This document shows, one piece after another, positions 422 through 29,110 of a stretch of DNA of 40,131 bases (the stretch's first letter is position 1; each line of letters opens with the position of its first letter). The notes under the pieces were generated by a model, which ran no database searches, was not told the origin of the DNA, and worked only from the letters and a program-made list of their open reading frames with translations. The position numbers and the translations under genes are program-made. The DNA is from a virus: positions 1-40,131 of the IMG/VR virus record IMGVR_UViG_3300045391_003787, one strand, 5' to 3'.

Positions 422-430
422 TGGTATAAT
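422..430 (+). promoter_or_regulatory. Extended -10 promoter element TGGTATAAT, one of four identical copies
   Basis: Exact TGnTATAAT match in an intergenic gap, 10 nt before the ATG at 440. No Shine-Dalgarno sequence lies between them. Confidence 0.5.
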
Positions 431-11624: not shown

Positions 11625-11633
11625 TGGTATAAT
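11625..11633 (+). promoter_or_regulatory. Extended -10 promoter element TGGTATAAT
   Basis: Exact copy of the motif in the 59-nt gap upstream of the 957-aa repeat protein gene. Confidence 0.45.
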
Positions 11634-14541: not shown

Positions 14542-14550
14542 TGGTATAAT
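14542..14550 (+). promoter_or_regulatory. Extended -10 promoter element TGGTATAAT ahead of the lysis cassette
   Basis: Exact copy of the motif, 4 nt after the stop of the 957-aa gene. Confidence 0.45.
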
Positions 14551-15001: not shown

Positions 15002-15093
15002 AATTTCTCTCCTTTATATTTGGTATGTTACTGGGATCAGCCCTTTTTCTAATCTCTTTATTAATTTGGAGTAGAATTATATGGGGCTTTTAG
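14998..15093 (+). CDS. Small hydrophobic peptide (31 aa), lysis-cassette component
   Basis: ATGA overlap with the upstream stop. The translation is MKFLSFIFGMLLGSALFLISLLIWSRIIWGF. It overlaps the endolysin start by 13 nt. Confidence 0.4.
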   Translation: MKFLSFIFGMLLGSALFLISLLIWSRIIWGF

Positions 15094-15848
15094 ATTTTCC
15101 AATAAAGGATACTTACTCGATCAGCCAGGGGTTTGGAGAGAACTTAGTAAACTACCAGGCCCTCGGCATGAAGGGTCATAATGGGTTGGATATTGCCTGT
15201 GCGACGGGCTCGGGTCTTTATGCTTGCCAAGATGGAGAGGTCATTGGTGTTAATACGGGGCAGGCTTTGAATGATAAGACTGGCTACGGAAATTATATTC
15301 GCCAACTTACTACCATTGATCCGACTGACACTAATGTTCCTAATGCTGCCTACTACGACATTATTTATGGGCACCTCTTAACGGTGTATGTAAGACCGGG
15401 CGACAAGATTATTAAGGGGCAACTAATTGGTTTAACTGATAACACTGGAAATTCCACTGGTCCCCATTGTCATTGGGGTGTTCGTTACATGGATAACAAT
15501 AAGACTGTCCTTGATTACAACAATGGTTACTTTGGTTATGTAGACGTGAAACCCTTAATAAATCCAACGACCTTGGCTATTGTTTATCCCGTTGATAATC
15601 GCTACGGGCAAGCTCAAGACAAACTTCTGGAAGGATTTTGGGCTCTTAAAAATGAGGCTTATGCTAAACGTAAGTGTGCCGAGAACGCCGTGCCCTATAC
15701 TGATCGAATCAAGAAGGCTTTTGTATACGGGAAATGGGATAGCTTCACCAATTTAGATAAGAAGCAGTATGGGGTTTTTGATGTGGCTATGTACGAGACT
15801 TGGCTGCACCTCACTAAACCGGAATTCCTTAAGAAATTAGGGAGATGA
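15081..15848 (+). CDS. Peptidase M23 (LytM-type) endolysin
   Basis: Canonical M23 motifs HNGLD (HxxxD) and GPHCHWG (HxH), with the intervening GYGNYI block. Confidence 0.85.
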   Translation: MGLLDFPIKDTYSISQGFGENLVNYQALGMKGHNGLDIACATGSGLYACQDGEVIGVNTGQALNDKTGYGNYIRQLTTIDPTDTNVPNAAYYDIIYGHLLTVYVRPGDKIIKGQLIGLTDNTGNSTGPHCHWGVRYMDNNKTVLDYNNGYFGYVDVKPLINPTTLAIVYPVDNRYGQAQDKLLEGFWALKNEAYAKRKCAENAVPYTDRIKKAFVYGKWDSFTNLDKKQYGVFDVAMYETWLHLTKPEFLKKLGR

Positions 15849-16302: not shown

Positions 16303-16323
16303 AGCCCTTTTAGGGCTTTTTTG
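16303..16323. terminator. Possible bidirectional rho-independent terminator
   Basis: Stem AGCCC (16303-07) / GGGCT (16313-17), with an A-run upstream and a T-run downstream. It lies at the convergence of the plus and minus modules. Confidence 0.5.
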
Positions 16324-16334
16324 TTTACATGGCA

Positions 16335-16363
16335 AGCCGACCTTTTCAGGGGTCGGCTTTTTT
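16335..16363 (+). terminator. Rho-independent terminator
   Basis: 8-bp stem AGCCGACC / GGTCGGCT with an 8-nt loop, followed by TTTTTT. Confidence 0.75.
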
Positions 16364-23649: not shown

Positions 23650-23895
23650 TTAGTTCTGATGTCTTATTTTGTCTTCTCTAAATAACTTAGCTTCTTGAAT
23701 ACTCATCTCTTGGTTCTCCTCTAAGTAGTTGAAAGTAATGTCTATATGATTGTGGATTCTTTTAACTAGGTCAGCGAACTTATCGGGAGTTTTAGCGAAG
23801 TAAGCTAATTTGTTTATATCCCCGTAGATAGTATGAAGTAACTCTACTTCTTGATCTACGTCGGTGTATTCGAATAGGTCTTTAATAAATGACAT
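23650..23895 (-). CDS. Hypothetical protein (81 aa)
   Basis: I place the start at MSFIKDL (23895), 1 nt after the upstream stop. The track ORF extends to 23949. Confidence 0.5.
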   Translation of the reverse strand: MSFIKDLFEYTDVDQEVELLHTIYGDINKLAYFAKTPDKFADLVKRIHNHIDITFNYLEENQEMSIQEAKLFREDKIRHQN

Positions 23896-23896
23896 A

Positions 23897-24022
23897 TTAT
23901 TTTTGTCTTGGTTTATCCCAATAGGGTGAGCGGCAATTCTTAGCACCACATCTCAGTGGTTTGCCTAAACGTGAGGGCCACTCATAGCCGCAACGTAGGC
24001 ATTTATATATCTTTAGTTTCAT
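23897..24022 (-). CDS. Zinc-ribbon miniprotein (41 aa)
   Basis: MKLKIYKCLRCGYEW...LRCGAKNCRSPYW. The start forms an ATGA overlap with the upstream ORF. Confidence 0.45.
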   Translation of the reverse strand: MKLKIYKCLRCGYEWPSRLGKPLRCGAKNCRSPYWDKPRQK

Positions 24023-24159
24023 AATCCAAAAATTGTTTTTATTATTATCCAAACAGATATTATTAGTCCTACAAGACAGGTGAGAAACATCGTACCGAAA
24101 ATCAGAAAGAATCCTATTGGACTTAATGCGTCTACTTGTTCGTCCCAATTATCCTTCAT
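24019..24159 (-). CDS. Small membrane protein (46 aa)
   Basis: Hand-translated as MKDNWDEQVDALSPIGFFLIFGTMFLTCLVGLIISVWIIIKTIFGL. Confidence 0.4.
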   Translation of the reverse strand: MKDNWDEQVDALSPIGFFLIFGTMFLTCLVGLIISVWIIIKTIFGL

Positions 24160-24160
24160 A

Positions 24161-24319
24161 TTATCTAGTGACTTTGCCTCTCGTGGGCATCCAGACGTGA
24201 CCGTGCTTTAATTCTTTGCATTCTCTGTCGGCGCATAAAGCTCCGTTAGCTCTAGCTCTTTCCCAAATCTTATCCATACGGTCATTGTATCTTTGGGCTC
24301 CGCTCTTAAAGTTTGACAT
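24161..24319 (-). CDS. Small hypothetical protein (52 aa), first gene of the minus-strand module
   Basis: Hand-translated as MSNFKSGAQRYNDRMDKIWERARANGALCADRECKELKHGHVW... Confidence 0.4.
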   Translation of the reverse strand: MSNFKSGAQRYNDRMDKIWERARANGALCADRECKELKHGHVWMPTRGKVTR

Positions 24320-24561
24320 AAATTTATAAGTTATTTGATTAATATTCTAAGGATACCACATCTACGGTACCTGTCAAGGGGGTATAAGCCCAATAAAATA
24401 AGGATATTATAGGGGGCTGTTGATATCTTTTAACTATAATACTTAAATGTCACAAACGGCTTCTAAGTATGGATTTAACCGACGCCAATATAAAAGACCC
24501 CACCATAGGCTATACATCCTGGGAAGACATAGAAATAGACTTAGGCACCCATAAGGTATAC

Positions 24562-24591
24562 TTGACAGTGAAAAAGGGTAGGATATATAAT
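24562..24591 (+). promoter_or_regulatory. Consensus sigma70-type promoter (TTGACA-N18-TATAAT)
   Basis: TTGACA at 24562-67 and TATAAT at 24586-91. Both hexamers are perfect and point towards the packaging and late genes. Confidence 0.7.
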
Positions 24592-24633
24592 TAATTCATC
24601 ATCATTGTTGGGCGGTGGTGGACAATCTACTCG

Positions 24634-24659
24634 CTCGCCCAACGGGCGAGTTTTTGTTT
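24634..24659 (+). terminator. Rho-independent terminator about 45 nt downstream of the consensus promoter, with a competing upstream hairpin
   Basis: Stem CTCGCCC (24634-40) / GGGCGAG (24644-50) with loop AAC, followed by TTTTTGTTT. GTTGGGCG (24607-14) can instead pair with CGCCCAAC (24636-43). Confidence 0.7.
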
Positions 24660-25028
24660 CTTAATAACTGTTAATCGTAGGATTTTATATACAGGGATAA
24701 GAACCCTGGATATTCATAGCTACCTACCTTTAGCAGTTGCTAGCAAACAAGCTAGGCCACCAGCCTTATCTGGTGAATAGTTCATTCATAAAGGCTATCT
24801 TTGAAGGGAAATATATTTTAAATGAGCTTTTAGGTGAGTCTTTGAGCGGATGAACCCTTAAGTTAGCCTTTACGAGTGAATTATTGAAGGGATAAGGCCC
24901 GAAGCGACAACACGATACCCGTACGGCATAATATAGGGCAACGATTCGTCGTAATCCTATGCCGGGGGGAGGAGTGGAGGAAGCGAAGGGGGCTCGGAGA
25001 GCATAGTATTACTAATGTAACCATTATT

Positions 25029-25205
25029 ATGAGAACATTACATTATACGGTTAGAGCTGTGAGAGTATCGGATGAGGTATGGCAAAGTCTCAAGGAATTA
25101 AGGCGTAAAGGTCGAGAGGACGGGGAGATGAGTTGGAATACACTATTTAAATTATTAATAGAAGCATATGGGAATGAGACCTTGCGAAGAGTGCCTAGAG
25201 AATAA
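25029..25205 (+). CDS. Small hypothetical protein (58 aa)
   Basis: Hand-checked ORF MRTLHYTVRAVRVSDEVWQSLKELRRKGRE.... It is the first plus-strand ORF after the long leader. Confidence 0.4.
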   Translation: MRTLHYTVRAVRVSDEVWQSLKELRRKGREDGEMSWNTLFKLLIEAYGNETLRRVPRE

Positions 25206-25416
25206 TTGGGGCAACTTTAAAAAGGGAGATGATGGATTTGTAACTGCAATTTGTCAGAATTGTGGCAAAGAAGTTAGTTGGAAAGCCAAGAAACAAGAGA
25301 AATCAATGAGCTGGAGTGAGATAACCCAAGCAATTTTAAAGATTGAATCCATGCTCAGAGATTTTGAGAAGAGATTAGAGCATTTAGAAAGACCTAAATT
25401 GATAGACGAGTACTAA
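25168..25416 (+). CDS. Zinc-ribbon protein with C-terminal coiled coil (82 aa)
   Basis: CEEC...(19 aa)...CQNC motif. The start could be 25168 or 25174. Confidence 0.55.
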   Translation: MGMRPCEECLENNWGNFKKGDDGFVTAICQNCGKEVSWKAKKQEKSMSWSEITQAILKIESMLRDFEKRLEHLERPKLIDEY

Positions 25417-25418
25417 TC

Positions 25419-25427
25419 TGGTATAAT
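25419..25427 (+). promoter_or_regulatory. Extended -10 promoter element TGGTATAAT
   Basis: Exact copy of the motif. The ATG at 25434 begins 7 nt after the -10, which would fit a leaderless transcript. Confidence 0.45.
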
Positions 25428-25433
25428 CTAGGT

Positions 25434-25586
25434 ATGGTATACATCCTAGGTATTTGGCTCCTTGGATTAGGGCTGTTTAGGCTAATAGATATAATGACTA
25501 AACAAGGCTTTTATTTGAAACAATATCTAATTTGGAGTATTTTGATAGCAGTATTACTAATAGCCGCAGCTTATGTTCAAAGTTGA
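25434..25586 (+). CDS. Small two-TM membrane protein (50 aa)
   Basis: Hand-translated codon by codon as MVYILGIWLLGLGLFRLI...YLIWSILIAVLLIAAAYVQS. Confidence 0.45.
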   Translation: MVYILGIWLLGLGLFRLIDIMTKQGFYLKQYLIWSILIAVLLIAAAYVQS

Positions 25587-25737
25587 AGTAGATTTTAATA
25601 AGTGGAATCCAGCAGCCGAGGAGGGGTGCTATACTCTCAAGTTTACAACTCAGGAGATACCAGACGATCTATTACTCTTAATTAAAGCCCATAAAGGTGG
25701 ACATGGGACTATTGAATTCAACGAAGATGGAGGGTGA
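25573..25737 (+). CDS. Small hypothetical protein (54 aa)
   Basis: Hand-translated as MFKVEVDFNKWNPAAEEGCYTLKF.... It overlaps both neighbours by a few codons. Confidence 0.4.
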   Translation: MFKVEVDFNKWNPAAEEGCYTLKFTTQEIPDDLLLLIKAHKGGHGTIEFNEDGG

Positions 25738-26116
25738 GGAAACTGAAATAAACAGTAATTTAACTGGGCCTTTTGTTAAGAATGATCCCAGGATTAATCG
25801 TGAAGGTAGGCCCAAAGAAACCGAGGAAACTAAGGCTAAACGTAAGTTAATCAAAGATTTAGTAGCCGAGTACAGACAGGCATTAGCTGAGGCATTACCA
25901 GTTATTACGCCAGTGTTATTAAAACAGGCCGCAAAGGGTGATATACAGGCGATAAAAGAGGTTAATGATCGAGTTATGGGTAAAGCTCCCCAATCTACGG
26001 ATATAACATCAGGCGGTGAGAAAATAACCCCTATTTATGGCGGGCTTTCAAACTTTAGCGATGTTCAAGAACACAACAGCAACCAAACGGATATTCAGCC
26101 TCAACAAGAGGATTAG
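25727..26116 (+). CDS. Putative terminase small subunit
   Basis: It lies immediately upstream of the large terminase. It has a basic N-terminal segment (NDPRINREGRPKETEE) followed by a helical region. The track ORF opens at GTG 25697. Confidence 0.45.
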   Translation: MEGEETEINSNLTGPFVKNDPRINREGRPKETEETKAKRKLIKDLVAEYRQALAEALPVITPVLLKQAAKGDIQAIKEVNDRVMGKAPQSTDITSGGEKITPIYGGLSNFSDVQEHNSNQTDIQPQQED

Positions 26117-27260
26117 AGCAGTCGCTGGTGGTACATCAGCCTCGAAGACTATCTCTATTTTGGTTTGGCTGATTGATTACGGCCAGACTACTAAGAACGA
26201 GATTTTAACAGTCGTCGCAGAGTCTTTTCCGCACCTACAATTAGGTGCGATCAGAGACTTTAGGACTATTATGGTCGCCCAAGGATATTGGGATGATGCT
26301 CGTTGGAATGACTCTAAACACGAATATACCTTTGAAAATGGGACTAAGTTAGAGTTCATATCGTTTGATAAGTTCGGTAAAGCCCACGGTCCTCGTCGAG
26401 ACGTCTTATTTATCAACGAGGCCAATAACATCCCCTATAACATTGCCGATCAGCTCATTACTCGTACGAGAAAGATAGTCTGGTTGGACTGGAACCCAAC
26501 AACTGAGTTCTGGTTTTATACAGAAATGCTTAATAAACGTCAGGACATAGACTTCATTACCCTGACTTATCTCGATAACGAGGCGCTAGACAACAATACG
26601 AAGCTTGAGATCGAGGCTCACAAAGCTAATAAGTCCTGGTGGACAGTGTATGGACTCGGGCAGTTGGGTGAAGTTGAGGGATTAATCTATAAAGGCTGGC
26701 AGGTTATTGATGAAATACCTCATGAGGCCCGTATAACACGCACAGGATTAGACTTTGGGTATACAAATGATGAATCAGCCATAGTGGATGTCTACTACCT
26801 CAATGGAGGCTATATTTTGGACGAGATCCTGTATCGCAAAGGCATGACCAACAAGCAATTAGTAGACACCTTGCAGTACAAAGAACAACAGGCTCTGGTA
26901 ATAGCTGATTCCGCCGAGCCTAAATCAATTGATGAGCTCAAAGCTTATGGGATAAACATCATGCCAGCGAAGAAAGGACCAGGATCGGTGGAGCGAGGGA
27001 TAGACTATGTTCGATCACAACGGATAAGTGTCACCAGACGGTCAGCAAATATCCTCAAAGAGTACAGGAATTATTTGTTTCTAGTCGATAAAGATGGTAA
27101 AATTACTAATGAGGAAGACCCGGCTTGTAAAAACCACTCCATGAGTGCCATTCGCTATGCGCTGGACTCACTCAGACCAAACGAGCAGGCCGTCCTCACT
27201 AAATTGAACCAAACCTTTAACCGAAACGAGCTGCGGTTTGTTAACAGTTCCAATAAATAA
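26037..27260 (+). CDS. terL: Terminase large subunit (PBSX/Terminase_3-like)
   Basis: Walker A-like AGGTSASKT, Walker B-like VLFINEA, and a C-terminal nuclease-like GLDFGYTNDESAIV. The start is uncertain (26037 or the Met at 26061). Confidence 0.8.
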   Translation: MAGFQTLAMFKNTTATKRIFSLNKRIRAVAGGTSASKTISILVWLIDYGQTTKNEILTVVAESFPHLQLGAIRDFRTIMVAQGYWDDARWNDSKHEYTFENGTKLEFISFDKFGKAHGPRRDVLFINEANNIPYNIADQLITRTRKIVWLDWNPTTEFWFYTEMLNKRQDIDFITLTYLDNEALDNNTKLEIEAHKANKSWWTVYGLGQLGEVEGLIYKGWQVIDEIPHEARITRTGLDFGYTNDESAIVDVYYLNGGYILDEILYRKGMTNKQLVDTLQYKEQQALVIADSAEPKSIDELKAYGINIMPAKKGPGSVERGIDYVRSQRISVTRRSANILKEYRNYLFLVDKDGKITNEEDPACKNHSMSAIRYALDSLRPNEQAVLTKLNQTFNRNELRFVNSSNK

Positions 27261-27262
27261 CT

Positions 27263-29110
27263 ATGACCTACGAGCAAGATTCAGTGTGTGAGTTAGTCCG
27301 GAAAGCGGAGCAGAACTATATTACCGGCACGACGACCATTGGGAAGTATGTGGAGTTCTCCCAGTACGAGAACATTGAAAAGATTGACGCTTACCTTAAC
27401 TCCAAGCACATTTCTGGCGACACCGACTCAATGGGCCGAGAAAAGCCCTTTTTTAACATAGTAACGAGTGCGGTAAATATCTGGTTTAGGGCGACCGACA
27501 TTGATCGCAAAGATATTAGAATAAAACCAACTAAGAAGTCTGACGTTGTACCAGCCTTTTTGGCTTCAATTCACCTACAGGAATGGATGAAACGAGAGGG
27601 CTTTGGCACCTTTTTAAATGACTGGGGACGCACACTGGCTCGTTATGGCTCAGCGGTTATTAAGTTTGTAGAATCAGGTGGGGAACTGCATTGTTCAGTC
27701 ATCCCCTGGAACCGCATGATCTCTGACACTATTGATTTTGAGAACAACCTAAAGATTGAGAAGCTCTACTACACACCAGCGCAGCTAAGAAAGAACAAGA
27801 ATTATGACCAGGAGGTGGTCGAGGCTTTGATTGAATCTCGATCCAAGAGACAAACACAAGGCAAACAGCACAAAGACAATATTAGTGAGTACATTGAGAT
27901 CTACGAGGTACACGGGGAACTACCGCTGTCTTATCTGACTGACAACGAGGAGGACGATGACGTGTACCAGCAGCAGATGCACATCATTTCCTTTAGTGGT
28001 AAGAAATACGGCTCTCGTTACTCCAAAGGATCATCGGATGACTATACGCTCTACAAAGGACGAGAGGCCAAAGATCCTTACATGATTACGCACTTAATTA
28101 AAGAGGACGGTCGAGCGCAGGCTATTGGAGCGGTTGAACACTTATTCGAAGCTCAGTGGATGCAAAACCACACCGCCAAACAGATCAAGGACCAATTAGA
28201 CTTGGCTTCTAAATTAGTATTCCAGACATCTGACGGCAATTACGCTGGTCGGAATGTCCTAACCTCTATCGAGAATGGCGATATACTTGTTTACAACACT
28301 AATGAACCTCTTACCCAGTTGGCGAACACTTCGCACGACATCACGTCGCTCCAAAACTTCGCCCAACAATGGAAGCAATTAGGTAACGAGATCAATGGAA
28401 TAAGTGAGTCATTGATGGGTGAGAACCCACCTTCGGGGACGGCGTGGCGACAGACTCAGGCTTTACTCCAAGAGTCACACTCGTTGTTTGAAATCATGAC
28501 TGAGAACAAAGGCTTGCACCTTGAGGATATGCTTCGTAAGTACATTATTCCTTACTTGAAGAAGCAACTTGATACGACAGACGAGATTGTAACGACCCTA
28601 GATGAGCAGGGAATCGCTCAGTTTGACGCAATGTATGTGCCGAGTGAGGTTATTAAGCAGTCCAATGAAATTATTAAGCAGCAGATTTTATCAGGCCAGA
28701 TCGCCTCACAACCTGATGCTCAACAGCTAGAGGCCGGAATTAAAGGCACGCTTGCTCAAGACGGCAACCAAAGGTTTATTAAGCCGTCTGATATACCAAC
28801 TAAAACTTGGAAGGATATATTCAAGGATATAGAATGGGAAGTAGAATGCGAAATAACACCAGAGAACAGCAACAAGGAAGCTGTACTAACAACTTTATCA
28901 ACGGTCTTACAGACTGTGGCAACGAATCCTTTAGTTTTACAGGACCCGAACATGAGATTAGTATTCAACCAGATTCTAACCGAGACCGGCAACATTTCTC
29001 CCCTACAATTGGCTCAAGTAGCCGCTCAACCACAGCCACAGACCCAGCCGCAACCACAAGCTCAACAGCCACAGCAGGTATTACAACCGCTAACTCAATC
29101 TAATAAATAA
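27263..29110 (+). CDS. Portal protein
   Basis: 615-aa ORF directly after terL, with size and position typical of a portal. It has a Q/P-rich C-terminal tail (QPQPQTQPQPQAQQPQQ). Confidence 0.65.
   Translation: MTYEQDSVCELVRKAEQNYITGTTTIGKYVEFSQYENIEKIDAYLNSKHISGDTDSMGREKPFFNIVTSAVNIWFRATDIDRKDIRIKPTKKSDVVPAFLASIHLQEWMKREGFGTFLNDWGRTLARYGSAVIKFVESGGELHCSVIPWNRMISDTIDFENNLKIEKLYYTPAQLRKNKNYDQEVVEALIESRSKRQTQGKQHKDNISEYIEIYEVHGELPLSYLTDNEEDDDVYQQQMHIISFSGKKYGSRYSKGSSDDYTLYKGREAKDPYMITHLIKEDGRAQAIGAVEHLFEAQWMQNHTAKQIKDQLDLASKLVFQTSDGNYAGRNVLTSIENGDILVYNTNEPLTQLANTSHDITSLQNFAQQWKQLGNEINGISESLMGENPPSGTAWRQTQALLQESHSLFEIMTENKGLHLEDMLRKYIIPYLKKQLDTTDEIVTTLDEQGIAQFDAMYVPSEVIKQSNEIIKQQILSGQIASQPDAQQLEAGIKGTLAQDGNQRFIKPSDIPTKTWKDIFKDIEWEVECEITPENSNKEAVLTTLSTVLQTVATNPLVLQDPNMRLVFNQILTETGNISPLQLAQVAAQPQPQTQPQPQAQQPQQVLQPLTQSNK

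What the first reader, a model, noticed from the sequence alone, without database searches (positions are those of the whole stretch)
24562..24659. Perfect consensus promoter followed within about 45 nt by a terminator that competes with an alternative hairpin, resembling a lambda PR'/tR'-type late-gene gate
TTGACA-N18-TATAAT (24562..24591) is the only perfect two-hexamer promoter I found, and it points into the packaging and late module.

About 45 nt downstream sits a GC-rich terminator: CTCGCCC-AAC-GGGCGAG followed by TTTTTGTTT. Its 5' arm (CGCCC) is also part of an 8-bp alternative pairing, GTTGGGCG (24607-14) with CGCCCAAC (24636-43). The two structures are therefore mutually exclusive.

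This architecture has two plausible readings. One is a processive antitermination target, as with lambda Q acting at PR' with the 6S RNA terminated at tR'. The other is an attenuator or riboswitch-like switch controlling late transcription, which would also produce a roughly 60-nt small RNA by default.
Basis: partly seen in the sequence, partly recalled or inferred. Interest (0 to 1): 0.62.

Follow-up and report, generated by a model that had tools for sequence, protein, structure and literature searches.

The report
Bistable terminator leader behind phage promoter
The only perfect promoter of an uncultured 40-kb phage is followed at once by an RNA leader that can fold either into a transcription terminator or into a longer competing hairpin. 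It is most likely an attenuator choosing between a ~60-nt RNA and read-through into the rightward genes; the kind of device is known, but its trigger here is not.

Summary
TTGACA-N18-TATAAT (24562-24591) is the only 12/12 promoter in this complete 40,131-bp phage genome (0.017 expected per shuffled genome). It is followed 38 nt later by one of only three strong intrinsic terminators (24629-24651 plus UUUUUGUUU).

The alternative pairing is larger than reported. It is a 16-bp antiterminator (24607-24643, -23.8 kcal/mol) that no shuffle of the leader matched (0 of 2000). A 5' hairpin (24600-20, -8.5) can hold it back. This is the classic three-hairpin attenuator layout, and it is kinetically poised.

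The lambda Q reading is not supported:
- No Q or Com-like family is encoded.
- The late region has no internal terminators.
- Four TGGTATAAT promoters feed the late genes independently.

The only things the switch alone controls are a 370-nt highly structured leader (z -5.8) and two orphan small ORFs.

The best reading is a promoter-proximal transcription attenuator with an unknown trigger. It is a new variant of a known kind.

Covariation could not be tested because no relative covers the site.

This scan has noted similar promoter-hairpin-terminator gates on other phage DNA. TerL relatives carry a separate conserved promoter-box-terminator element in front of the portal gene.

The parts
24562..24591 (+). 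Sigma-70-type promoter: TTGACA, 18-nt spacer, TATAAT. The predicted start is A24598.
   Evidence: This is the only 12/12 site in the genome. Shuffled genomes give 0.017 on average. The start site is inferred from spacing, not measured.
24600..24620 (+). Hairpin 1:2, the anti-antiterminator. It has 9 bp (4 of them G.U) and a UGG loop. It ties up the G-rich strand GGGCGGUGGUGG.
   Evidence: Its energy is -8.5 kcal/mol, and it is the MFE of the nascent RNA up to about 24633. Shuffles of segment 1 reach it in 21 of 3000 trials; random genomic 11-mers in 195 of 3000.
24607..24643 (+). Antiterminator hairpin 2:3: 16 bp, two single-base bulges, two G.U pairs. It covers the whole 5' arm of the terminator.
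   Evidence: Its energy is -23.8 kcal/mol. 0 of 2000 leader shuffles and 0 of 2000 genomic 31-mers reach it. It makes up 65% of the equilibrium ensemble of the 63-nt RNA and 97% of the 438-nt read-through RNA.
24629..24660 (+). Intrinsic terminator 3:4: a 9-bp stem with 6 G-C pairs and loop CCCAA, followed by UUUUUGUUU.
   Evidence: Found. The core is -13.9 kcal/mol. It is one of three strong terminators in the genome. It is not a terminator on the - strand, because no T run follows there.
24660..25028 (+). ORF-poor 370-nt leader that only read-through transcripts would contain. It includes a 39-nt-arm inverted repeat (24763-24801 / 24860-24898).
   Evidence: MFE -121.5 kcal/mol, z -5.8, 0 of 100 shuffles as stable. 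No Rfam match even at E<=10. No homologue was found in the phage records or in the fetched loci of TerL relatives.
25029..25416 (+). Two overlapping small ORFs, the first genes behind the switch. One is 58 aa (25029-25205), with a strand-helix-helix pattern like ribbon-helix-helix regulators. The other is 82 aa (25168-25416), a CxxC...CxxC zinc ribbon plus a coiled-coil tail.
   Evidence: ORFs. Both are orphans among 5.8 billion proteins, with no Pfam or PHROG match. The AF2 model of the 58-aa protein is E-E-H-H at pLDDT 63 and has no Foldseek hit. The regulator assignment is therefore inference only.
25399..25427 (+). Next rightward promoter, TTGATA-17-(TG)TATAAT, 7 nt ahead of the ATG at 25434. 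It bypasses the switch for the downstream packaging genes.
   Evidence: Scores 11/12 with TG. It is one of four exact TGGTATAAT copies, where 0.45 are expected by chance.
24350..24433 (-). Leftward promoter-like sites for the divergent early operon: TTGACA-16-TATCCT with TG (24377..24350) and TTAAAA-16-TATAAT (24433..24406).
   Evidence: They do not overlap the rightward transcript. They are consensus matches only.

Best explanation
This is a promoter-proximal transcription attenuator at the head of the rightward transcription unit, in the divergent control region of a phage.

Host RNA polymerase starts at about 24598 from a consensus promoter. The first 46 nt of RNA contain four segments.
- **1:2 then 3:4.** Segments 1 and 2 fold first (24600-20). 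If that hairpin persists, segment 3 stays free. It then pairs with segment 4 to form the terminator, and a roughly 60-nt RNA is released at the U tract.
- **2:3.** If segment 3 displaces segment 1, the 16-bp antiterminator (24607-43) forms. The terminator cannot fold, and polymerase runs on. It transcribes a 370-nt structured leader, two small ORFs that may be regulators, and the genes beyond.

The two end states are separated by about 20 kcal/mol, so the choice is made during transcription. The 1:2-to-2:3 exchange costs about 7 kcal/mol. That puts it on the same time scale as transcribing the last 10-20 nt. The ratio should therefore respond to anything that does one of three things:
- stabilises hairpin 1:2;
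- binds the G-rich strand;
- changes elongation or pausing.

**Shown:** the promoter, the terminator, the three competing helices and their statistics.

**Inferred:** the start site; that the choice is regulated rather than a fixed leak; and that the effector is a phage early protein or a modified polymerase.
For: - The promoter is unique in the genome and unlikely by chance.
- The terminator is one of three strong ones and lies 38 nt after the -10.
- No + strand gene lies upstream that would clearly need it. The only candidate is an uncertain 41-aa ORF.
- The antiterminator is -23.8 kcal/mol and was matched by 0 of 2000 shuffles.
- Hairpin 1:2 is -8.5 kcal/mol and was matched by 21 of 3000 shuffles.
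- Energies, barriers and growing-chain snapshots show the order 1:2, then 2:3, then 3:4.
- The structure favours the + strand RNA, -25.7 versus -16 kcal/mol.
- The read-through RNA is itself strongly structured and keeps the antiterminator. This argues that read-through is a used product.
- Canonical CTTGACA-N17-TATAAT promoters are conserved in related phages, so this promoter type is under selection in the group.
- Terminator-like hairpins are enriched 0-79 nt downstream of strong promoters in 673 kb of related loci: 11 against about 1.3 per 40-nt bin.
Against:
- No relative covers the site, so there is no covariation test. The only other contig that covers it is identical.
- No effector was identified. 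There is no leader peptide, no aptamer-sized region, no Rfam hit, no antisense promoter and no known RNA-binding antiterminator family.
- The host is unknown, so promoter and terminator function are assumed from consensus.
- Because the antiterminator is so stable, the terminator might rarely form, and the element could be a mostly open leader.
- Promoter-terminator pairs in distant relatives have much weaker alternative hairpins. Most are not significant on their own.
Confidence: 0.5

Rival explanations
1. Stand-alone small RNA gene. The promoter and terminator exist to make an abundant RNA of about 60 nt that acts in trans, on phage or host messages. Read-through would be incidental.
For: A strong promoter plus a strong terminator and a 60-nt product is the standard anatomy of an sRNA gene. 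The leader segment 24603-14 has a 12-nt exact complement inside the portal mRNA at 28360-71, with a duplex energy of -26.8 kcal/mol. Short terminated PR' RNAs can acquire sRNA functions, as StxS did (PMC7547250).
Against: A 16-bp hairpin that masks the terminator, and that 0 of 2000 shuffles match, would be counter-productive for a dedicated sRNA gene. The portal match has a BLAST E-value of about 0.1. No homologue or Rfam family was found. The downstream leader is highly structured, which suggests read-through matters.
Confidence: 0.2
2. Lambda-type late gate. A phage early protein loads onto polymerase at or near this promoter and makes it terminator-resistant, so the short RNA is made early and read-through comes late.
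For: A constitutive-looking consensus promoter with a terminator directly behind it sits at the border between the early and late modules. A -10-like CATCAT lies at +3 to +8 and could cause a sigma-dependent pause (read; 4 of 6 matches, not significant). There are many uncharacterised zinc-ribbon miniproteins in the early operon. Earlier scan notes link such leaders to small zinc-ribbon proteins in other phages (not checked here).
Against: None of the three Pfam Q families, nor the Com zinc-ribbon family, is present in six frames at E<=10. No PHROG antiterminator hit was found. No other strong terminators lie in the 31-kb late region. Four independent extended -10 promoters feed the late genes. 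The strong antiterminator hairpin has no role in this model.
Confidence: 0.12
3. Fixed leaky terminator, or the terminator of a tiny upstream gene. The hairpin either ends transcripts of the 41-aa ORF (24469-24594) or simply damps an over-strong promoter at a constant ratio, with no regulation.
For: A gene caller called the 41-aa ORF on the identical Logan contig. The equilibrium split is 65:34, which would give partial termination without any factor.
Against: The 41-aa ORF has no homologue or family, and no strong promoter lies ahead of it. A three-helix arrangement, with each helix beyond chance, is more than a leaky terminator needs.
Confidence: 0.1
4. DNA-level or replication role. The short transcript would prime or activate an origin in the 709-bp non-coding region, or the inverted repeat would be a protein-binding site.
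For: No recognisable replication genes or origin are present in the genome. This is the longest non-coding region, and it has a large inverted repeat. A G-rich tract lies in the transcript.
Against: G.U pairs and the strand asymmetry point to RNA. GC skew is uninformative here. There is no iteron-like repeat family.
Confidence: 0.05

Closest known systems
Classical terminator/antiterminator attenuators with an anti-antiterminator: the E. coli trp-type 1:2/2:3/3:4 leaders, the B. subtilis pyr (PyrR) and trp (TRAP) leaders (from established knowledge)
   Same: Four RNA segments directly behind the promoter. The terminator and antiterminator are mutually exclusive. An upstream hairpin decides which one forms. 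The decision is made during transcription, and a short terminated leader RNA is released.
   Different: There is no leader peptide; the first helix starts at +3, and there is no AUG. There are no (G/U)AG repeats or PyrR-type box. The antiterminator is far more stable than in those systems (-23.8 versus -8.5 for 1:2). It sits in a phage control region, and the effector is unknown.
Lambda PR' - tR' - Q late switch: 6S RNA, and StxS in Stx phages (PMC7547250; Q loading at a QBE plus a sigma-dependent pause, doi 10.1101/2022.03.25.485794)
   Same: A strong constitutive-type promoter with a terminator close behind it, at the start of rightward or late transcription in a phage, with a short RNA as by-product.
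   Different: No Q homologue is present. No processivity is needed, because there are no further terminators. The terminator starts 31 nt from the predicted start, compared with a 194-nt 6S RNA in lambda. A competing RNA hairpin is present here, and Q does not use one. The late genes have other promoters.
Antisense-RNA-driven attenuation (pT181, pIP501, pAD1) and P4 CI RNA-mediated premature termination (from established knowledge)
   Same: By default a 'preemptor' antiterminator blocks a leader terminator. Binding of the upstream strand by another molecule lets the terminator form.
   Different: No antisense promoter lies in or after the leader. No second copy or complement of the segments lies elsewhere in the genome beyond a 12-mer at chance level.
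Protein-stabilised antiterminator hairpins (BglG/SacY/LicT RAT, ANTAR targets)
   Same: An imperfect hairpin overlaps the 5' arm of a terminator.
   Different: Those hairpins are weak and need the protein. This one is stronger than the terminator. No CAT or ANTAR protein is encoded, and the leader does not show the two-hexaloop ANTAR pattern (read).
Promoter-hairpin-terminator leaders noted earlier by this scan in other uncultured (often CPR-associated) phages (e1-5156741, e1-1144379, e1-1040593, e1-3277488)
   Same: The same layout and the same inferred role, ahead of phage structural or packaging genes.
   Different: There is no sequence similarity to anything retrievable here. Those reports describe conserved, often duplicated boxes, whereas this one is single-copy and an orphan. 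Their claims were not checked here.

Membership tests
Lambda-type Q antitermination cassette | A Q-family protein is encoded by the phage | tested here: not met
   PF03589, PF06530 and PF06323 give no match at E<=10 in six frames. No PHROG antiterminator hit was found.
Lambda-type Q antitermination cassette | A strong promoter with a promoter-proximal intrinsic terminator ahead of the late genes | tested here: met
   The 12/12 promoter is at 24562-91 and the terminator at 24629-60.
Lambda-type Q antitermination cassette | A Q-binding element and a sigma-dependent pause element in the initial transcribed region | tested here: inconclusive
   CATCAT at +3..+8 matches 4 of 6 positions of a -10, which is common by chance. 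A QBE cannot be recognised without a known Q.
Lambda-type Q antitermination cassette | Processive read-through of further terminators in a long late operon | tested here: not met
   No other strong + strand terminator occurs before the convergent end at 16303-16359. Four internal TGGTATAAT promoters are present.
Terminator/antiterminator transcription attenuator | An intrinsic terminator in the leader, directly behind the promoter | tested here: met
Terminator/antiterminator transcription attenuator | A mutually exclusive alternative helix using the terminator's 5' arm, beyond chance | tested here: met
   The helix is -23.8 kcal/mol and was matched by 0 of 2000 shuffles.
Terminator/antiterminator transcription attenuator | Conservation or covariation of both helices in relatives | not testable with these tools
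   The intergenic region shows no DNA similarity in the phage records or in the loci of TerL relatives fetched up to (at most 74% TerL identity). The closest relative found later (85% TerL identity) starts to the right of the site. The only other contig that covers the site is identical.
Terminator/antiterminator transcription attenuator | An identified sensor (leader peptide, aptamer, tRNA, RNA-binding protein or antisense RNA) | tested here: not met
   There is no AUG or usable leader ORF. The leader is only 31 nt. There is no Rfam hit, no antisense promoter, and no known RNA-binding antiterminator family among the proteins scanned.
Terminator/antiterminator transcription attenuator | Condition-dependent termination observed | not testable with these tools
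Com-like zinc-ribbon / box-terminator late switch (earlier scan notes) | A Com-type zinc-ribbon gene (PF10122) beside the leader | tested here: not met
   No PF10122 match at E<=10 in six frames. Other zinc-ribbon miniproteins exist but are unclassified.

The most novel reading that the evidence does not exclude
The leader is a new, very small regulatory RNA switch. Its G-rich strand, four NGG triplets (GGGCGGUGGUGG, also a two-tier G-quadruplex motif), would be the sensor. It could be bound by one of the phage's orphan early zinc-ribbon miniproteins, or it could read polymerase speed or the host's nucleotide state. That would set the timing of a cascade: read-through yields a ~430-nt structured RNA and two small regulators, which then act on the TGGTATAAT late promoters.
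Probability: 0.15. Interest if true: 0.7.

Novelty: new variant of a known kind. Interest (0 to 1): 0.42.

Why it matters
Almost nothing is known about how phages of uncultured lineages time their gene expression. This phage has no cultured relative; the best TerL identity to a cultured phage is 43.5%. Its gene starts lack Shine-Dalgarno sequences, and it encodes no recognisable regulators.

A compact three-hairpin leader behind the strongest promoter is a concrete control point that can be tested in vitro. If it responds to a phage miniprotein, it would define a new antitermination or attenuation factor. If it does not, it is an example of a purely kinetic RNA switch.

Together with the separate conserved promoter-box-terminator element found in related phages, it suggests that promoter-proximal termination control is common in this phage group.

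Tried and rejected
**Known RNA classes**
- Rfam at gathering thresholds on the whole window, and at E<=10 on 24200-25200, gave only noise.
- There are no tRNA or tmRNA genes.

**Homologues for a covariation test**
- blastn against the phage collection found none.
- An exact 41-mer scan of IMG/VR found none.
- blastn and nhmmer of the intergenic region against 160 TerL-related loci found none.
- TerL searches of the metagenome and genome collections gave at most 74% identity.
- In the 5.8-billion-protein search, the best non-self TerL (85%) sits on a contig that starts to the right of the site. The 100% hit is an identical contig.
- The neighbouring ORFs are orphans.
- The 147-aa early protein has no IMG/VR relative.

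**Candidate factors**
- The Q families and the Com zinc ribbon are absent.

**Other attenuator types**
- Leader-peptide attenuation was rejected. Helix 1 starts at +3, and the only frame is a UUG at +8 with no initiation signal.
- Antisense-RNA attenuation was rejected because no - strand promoter lies nearby.
- A trans RNA from elsewhere in the genome was rejected. The only match is a 12-mer in the portal gene at E 0.1.

**Nearby proteins**
- The ribbon-helix-helix assignment of the 58-aa ORF has no tool support. PDB sequence hits are only to designed helical repeats. The AF2 pLDDT is 63, and there is no Foldseek hit.
- The window's 41-aa and 54-aa ORFs are not homologous to the ~80-aa protein that precedes the relatives' element (hhalign probability below 1%).

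**Comparative architecture**
- A promoter-terminator pair at the divergent junction is not generally conserved among relatives.
- The leader of L029 is not structured (z -0.96).
- Pairing of the U tract with the purine tract at 24978-95 is not significant (57 of 8021 genome windows).

**Other**
- GC skew gave no origin signal.
- My first simple gene caller gave spurious junctions and was replaced.

Full report
**Context**

The window is a complete IMG/VR phage genome of 40,131 bp. Its first and last 69 nt are identical, which looks like an assembly overlap.

The genes form three blocks:
- A + strand block from 25029, through the end and start of the record, to about 16300. It holds a DUF5681 terminase-small-like gene (25697-26116), TerL (26037-27260), the gene in the portal position (27263-29110; no family match), virion genes and an M23 peptidase (15081-15848).
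- A - strand early block from 24319 down to 16441. It is made mostly of miniproteins, plus a NinG-like nuclease, an MT-A70 methylase, an HNH nuclease and a YopX-like protein.
- A 709-bp divergent non-coding region (24320-25028) between them.

The finding lies in that region. The closest cultured phages have only 43.5% TerL identity (Flavobacterium phages). The host is unknown. Gene starts have no Shine-Dalgarno motif.

- TTGACA-N18-TATAAT at 24562-24591 is the only 12/12 promoter match in the genome. Dinucleotide shuffles give 0.017 per genome.
- The terminator stem (24629-24651) has 9 bp with 6 G-C pairs and is followed by UUUUUGUUU. It is one of only three strong terminators. The other two mark the convergent end at 16303-16359.
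- It is the only promoter-then-terminator pair within 130 nt on either strand.
- The hairpin is not followed by a T run on the - strand.
- The only + strand ORF upstream is an uncertain 41-aa frame.
- The terminator therefore serves transcripts from this promoter.

The 8-bp pairing 24607-14/24636-43 is the base of a 16-bp hairpin (24607-24643) worth -23.8 kcal/mol. The terminator core is worth -13.9.
- With the terminator kept fixed, 0 of 2000 shuffles of the 31-nt leader gave an alternative this stable (mean -10.5, sd 2.7). The same was true for 0 of 2000 random genomic 31-mers.
- A third helix (24600-24620, -8.5 kcal/mol) pairs the extreme 5' end with the G-rich strand. Shuffles of segment 1 reach it in 21 of 3000 trials.
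- The + strand RNA folds to -25.7 kcal/mol (z -4.2), the - strand to only -16 (z -2.45). Two G.U pairs in the antiterminator would be C.A mismatches on the other strand.
- So this is an RNA feature of the rightward transcript. Its topology is that of a classical attenuator: 1:2 plus 3:4, or 2:3.

**Which fate is the default cannot be decided by calculation**

- At equilibrium the 63-nt RNA is 65% antiterminator and 34% terminator.
- The direct-path barrier between the two is about 20 kcal/mol, so the choice is kinetic.
- Growing-chain snapshots show 1:2 forming first. The antiterminator becomes more stable only once about 24637-43 has emerged, a few nucleotides before the terminator's 3' arm.
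- The 1:2-to-2:3 exchange has a barrier of about 7 kcal/mol.
- By inference, that is roughly the time scale of transcribing the remaining 10-20 nt. The system looks poised and should respond to pausing, elongation rate, or any ligand of segment 1 or 2.

**What lies downstream**

- Read-through RNA would carry a 370-nt ORF-poor leader with exceptional predicted structure (z -5.8; z -6.5 with the switch included). In it the antiterminator has 97% probability.
- Two orphan small ORFs follow, of 58 and 82 aa. The first has a strand-helix-helix pattern like ribbon-helix-helix regulators, but no tool supports that.
- A second near-perfect promoter then follows (TTGATA-17-TGGTATAAT, 25399-25427), placed to start a leaderless message at 25434.
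- It is one of four exact TGGTATAAT copies on the late strand, where 0.45 are expected by chance.
- The switch is therefore not the sole entrance to the late genes. What it alone controls is the leader and the two small ORFs.

**Testing the lambda reading**

- No Q family, Com-type zinc ribbon or PHROG antiterminator is encoded.
- No internal late terminators exist that would call for a processive factor.
- The competing hairpin has no place in the Q mechanism, which loads at a QBE and a sigma-dependent pause (doi 10.1101/2022.03.25.485794).
- A -10-like CATCAT at +3..+8 is too weak a match to count.
- The element works somewhat like PR'-tR', with a short RNA or read-through, as in PMC7547250. 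It is not a member of that system.

**Other attenuator types**

- There is no room for a leader peptide.
- The leader is too short for an aptamer, and Rfam finds nothing.
- There is no antisense promoter.
- There is no second copy or complement in the genome beyond a 12-mer inside the portal gene at E 0.1.
- The trigger remains unknown.

**Relatives**

- No sequence relative of the element exists in the collections reached. Covariation is untestable for now.
- Divergent junctions of distant relatives do carry consensus-type divergent promoters, but usually no terminator behind them.
- Across 673 kb of related loci, terminator-like hairpins are enriched 0-79 nt downstream of strong promoters: 11 against about 1.3 per 40-nt bin.
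- One set forms a true family in at least seven distinct IMG/VR phages (L170-L178; L176 and L177 are identical over the element). It consists of CTTGACAAG-N17-TATAAT, an AT-rich stretch, the box CTAACCRAAAYMAAMGGGGG, a terminator, a U tract, and the ATG of the next large gene, which sits in the portal position. The terminator stem sequences differ completely between phages yet stay complementary: AACUC/GAGUU, GCUCA/UGAGC, AGUGC/GCACU, AAGCU/AGCUU, AUGCCA/UGGCAU, GAGUG/CACUC, GAGGUG/CACCUC.
- That element always follows a conserved ~80-aa protein. The window does not encode this protein.
- The alternative hairpins of these elements are weak.
- This shows that promoter-proximal terminators are a recurring, selected feature of the group. 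The window's switch is a different, single-copy and much more bistable version.

**Verdict**

- The element is real, and each of its parts is beyond chance.
- It is best read as a transcription attenuator with an unidentified effector (confidence about 0.5).
- The rivals are a stand-alone sRNA (0.2), a Q-like gate (0.12), a fixed leaky terminator (0.1) and a DNA-level role (0.05).
- It is a new variant of a known kind.
- Earlier notes of this scan describe similar gates in other uncultured phages. I did not check them.

Noticed in passing
L170-L178 (e.g. L175:5560-5700, L173 = L022:2245-2365, L174 = L046:6701-6830, L178 = L063:6751-6880): A conserved non-coding element occurs in at least seven distinct related phages (L176 and L177 are identical over it). 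It consists of a consensus promoter, the box CTAACCRAAAYMAAMGGGGG, a terminator whose stem covaries completely, a U tract, and then the ATG of the next large gene, in the portal position. It always follows a conserved ~80-aa protein (DFxVMGLD..FLNWC..NRxNLEFIK..VLHxDHL..IxRIDD) that has no Pfam family. It is a candidate gate with its own factor.
   Followed up: partly
window 24660-25028: The 370-nt ORF-poor stretch behind the terminator folds far better than shuffles (z -5.8). It has a 39-nt-arm inverted repeat (24763-24801 / 24860-24898) and a purine tract GGGGGGAGGAGUGGAGGAAGCGAAGGGGG (24956-24984). There is no Rfam match and no homologue. It could be an undescribed structured RNA or an origin.
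   Followed up: partly
window 422-430, 11625-11633, 14542-14550, 25419-25427: There are four exact TGGTATAAT extended -10 motifs, all intergenic on the late strand (0.45 expected by chance). The one at 25419 sits 7 nt before the ATG at 25434, as for a leaderless mRNA.
   Followed up: partly
window 28360-28371: The portal-position gene contains CGCCCAACAATG, an exact 12-nt complement of leader 24603-14 (duplex -26.8 kcal/mol, BLAST E about 0.1). It is a possible target of the short RNA, or it is chance.
   Followed up: no
window, all gene starts (e.g. 26037, 27263, 29113, 24319): Gene starts are preceded by A/T-rich sequence with no Shine-Dalgarno motif, while the promoters are of canonical sigma-70 type. 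This is a clue to a host with SD-independent initiation.
   Followed up: no
window 24506-24523 and 25433-25450: An imperfect direct repeat, TAGGCTATACATCCTGGG and TATGGTATACATCCTAGG. One copy is about 40 nt upstream of the -35 of the perfect promoter. The other is at the start site of the 25399 promoter. It may be a shared operator, or it may be chance.
   Followed up: no
window 24610-24621: GGGCGGTGGTGG fits a two-tier G-quadruplex motif with 1-nt loops. Only five loci of this type occur in the genome. If it forms in RNA, it would sequester the antiterminator strand.
   Followed up: no
L029:1725-1848 (= L115): Another relative has a 12/12 promoter (TTGACA-16-TATAAT) followed 40 nt later by a 27-bp hairpin with a U-rich tail, about 300 nt ahead of its terminase-small-like gene. 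Its alternative upstream pairing is -12.7 kcal/mol, matched by 18 of 1000 shuffles.
   Followed up: partly
L168 (Logan SRR8549365 contig, 4969 bp): A contig from a public run is 100% identical to window 23812-28780, so the phage was sampled in that run.
   Followed up: no
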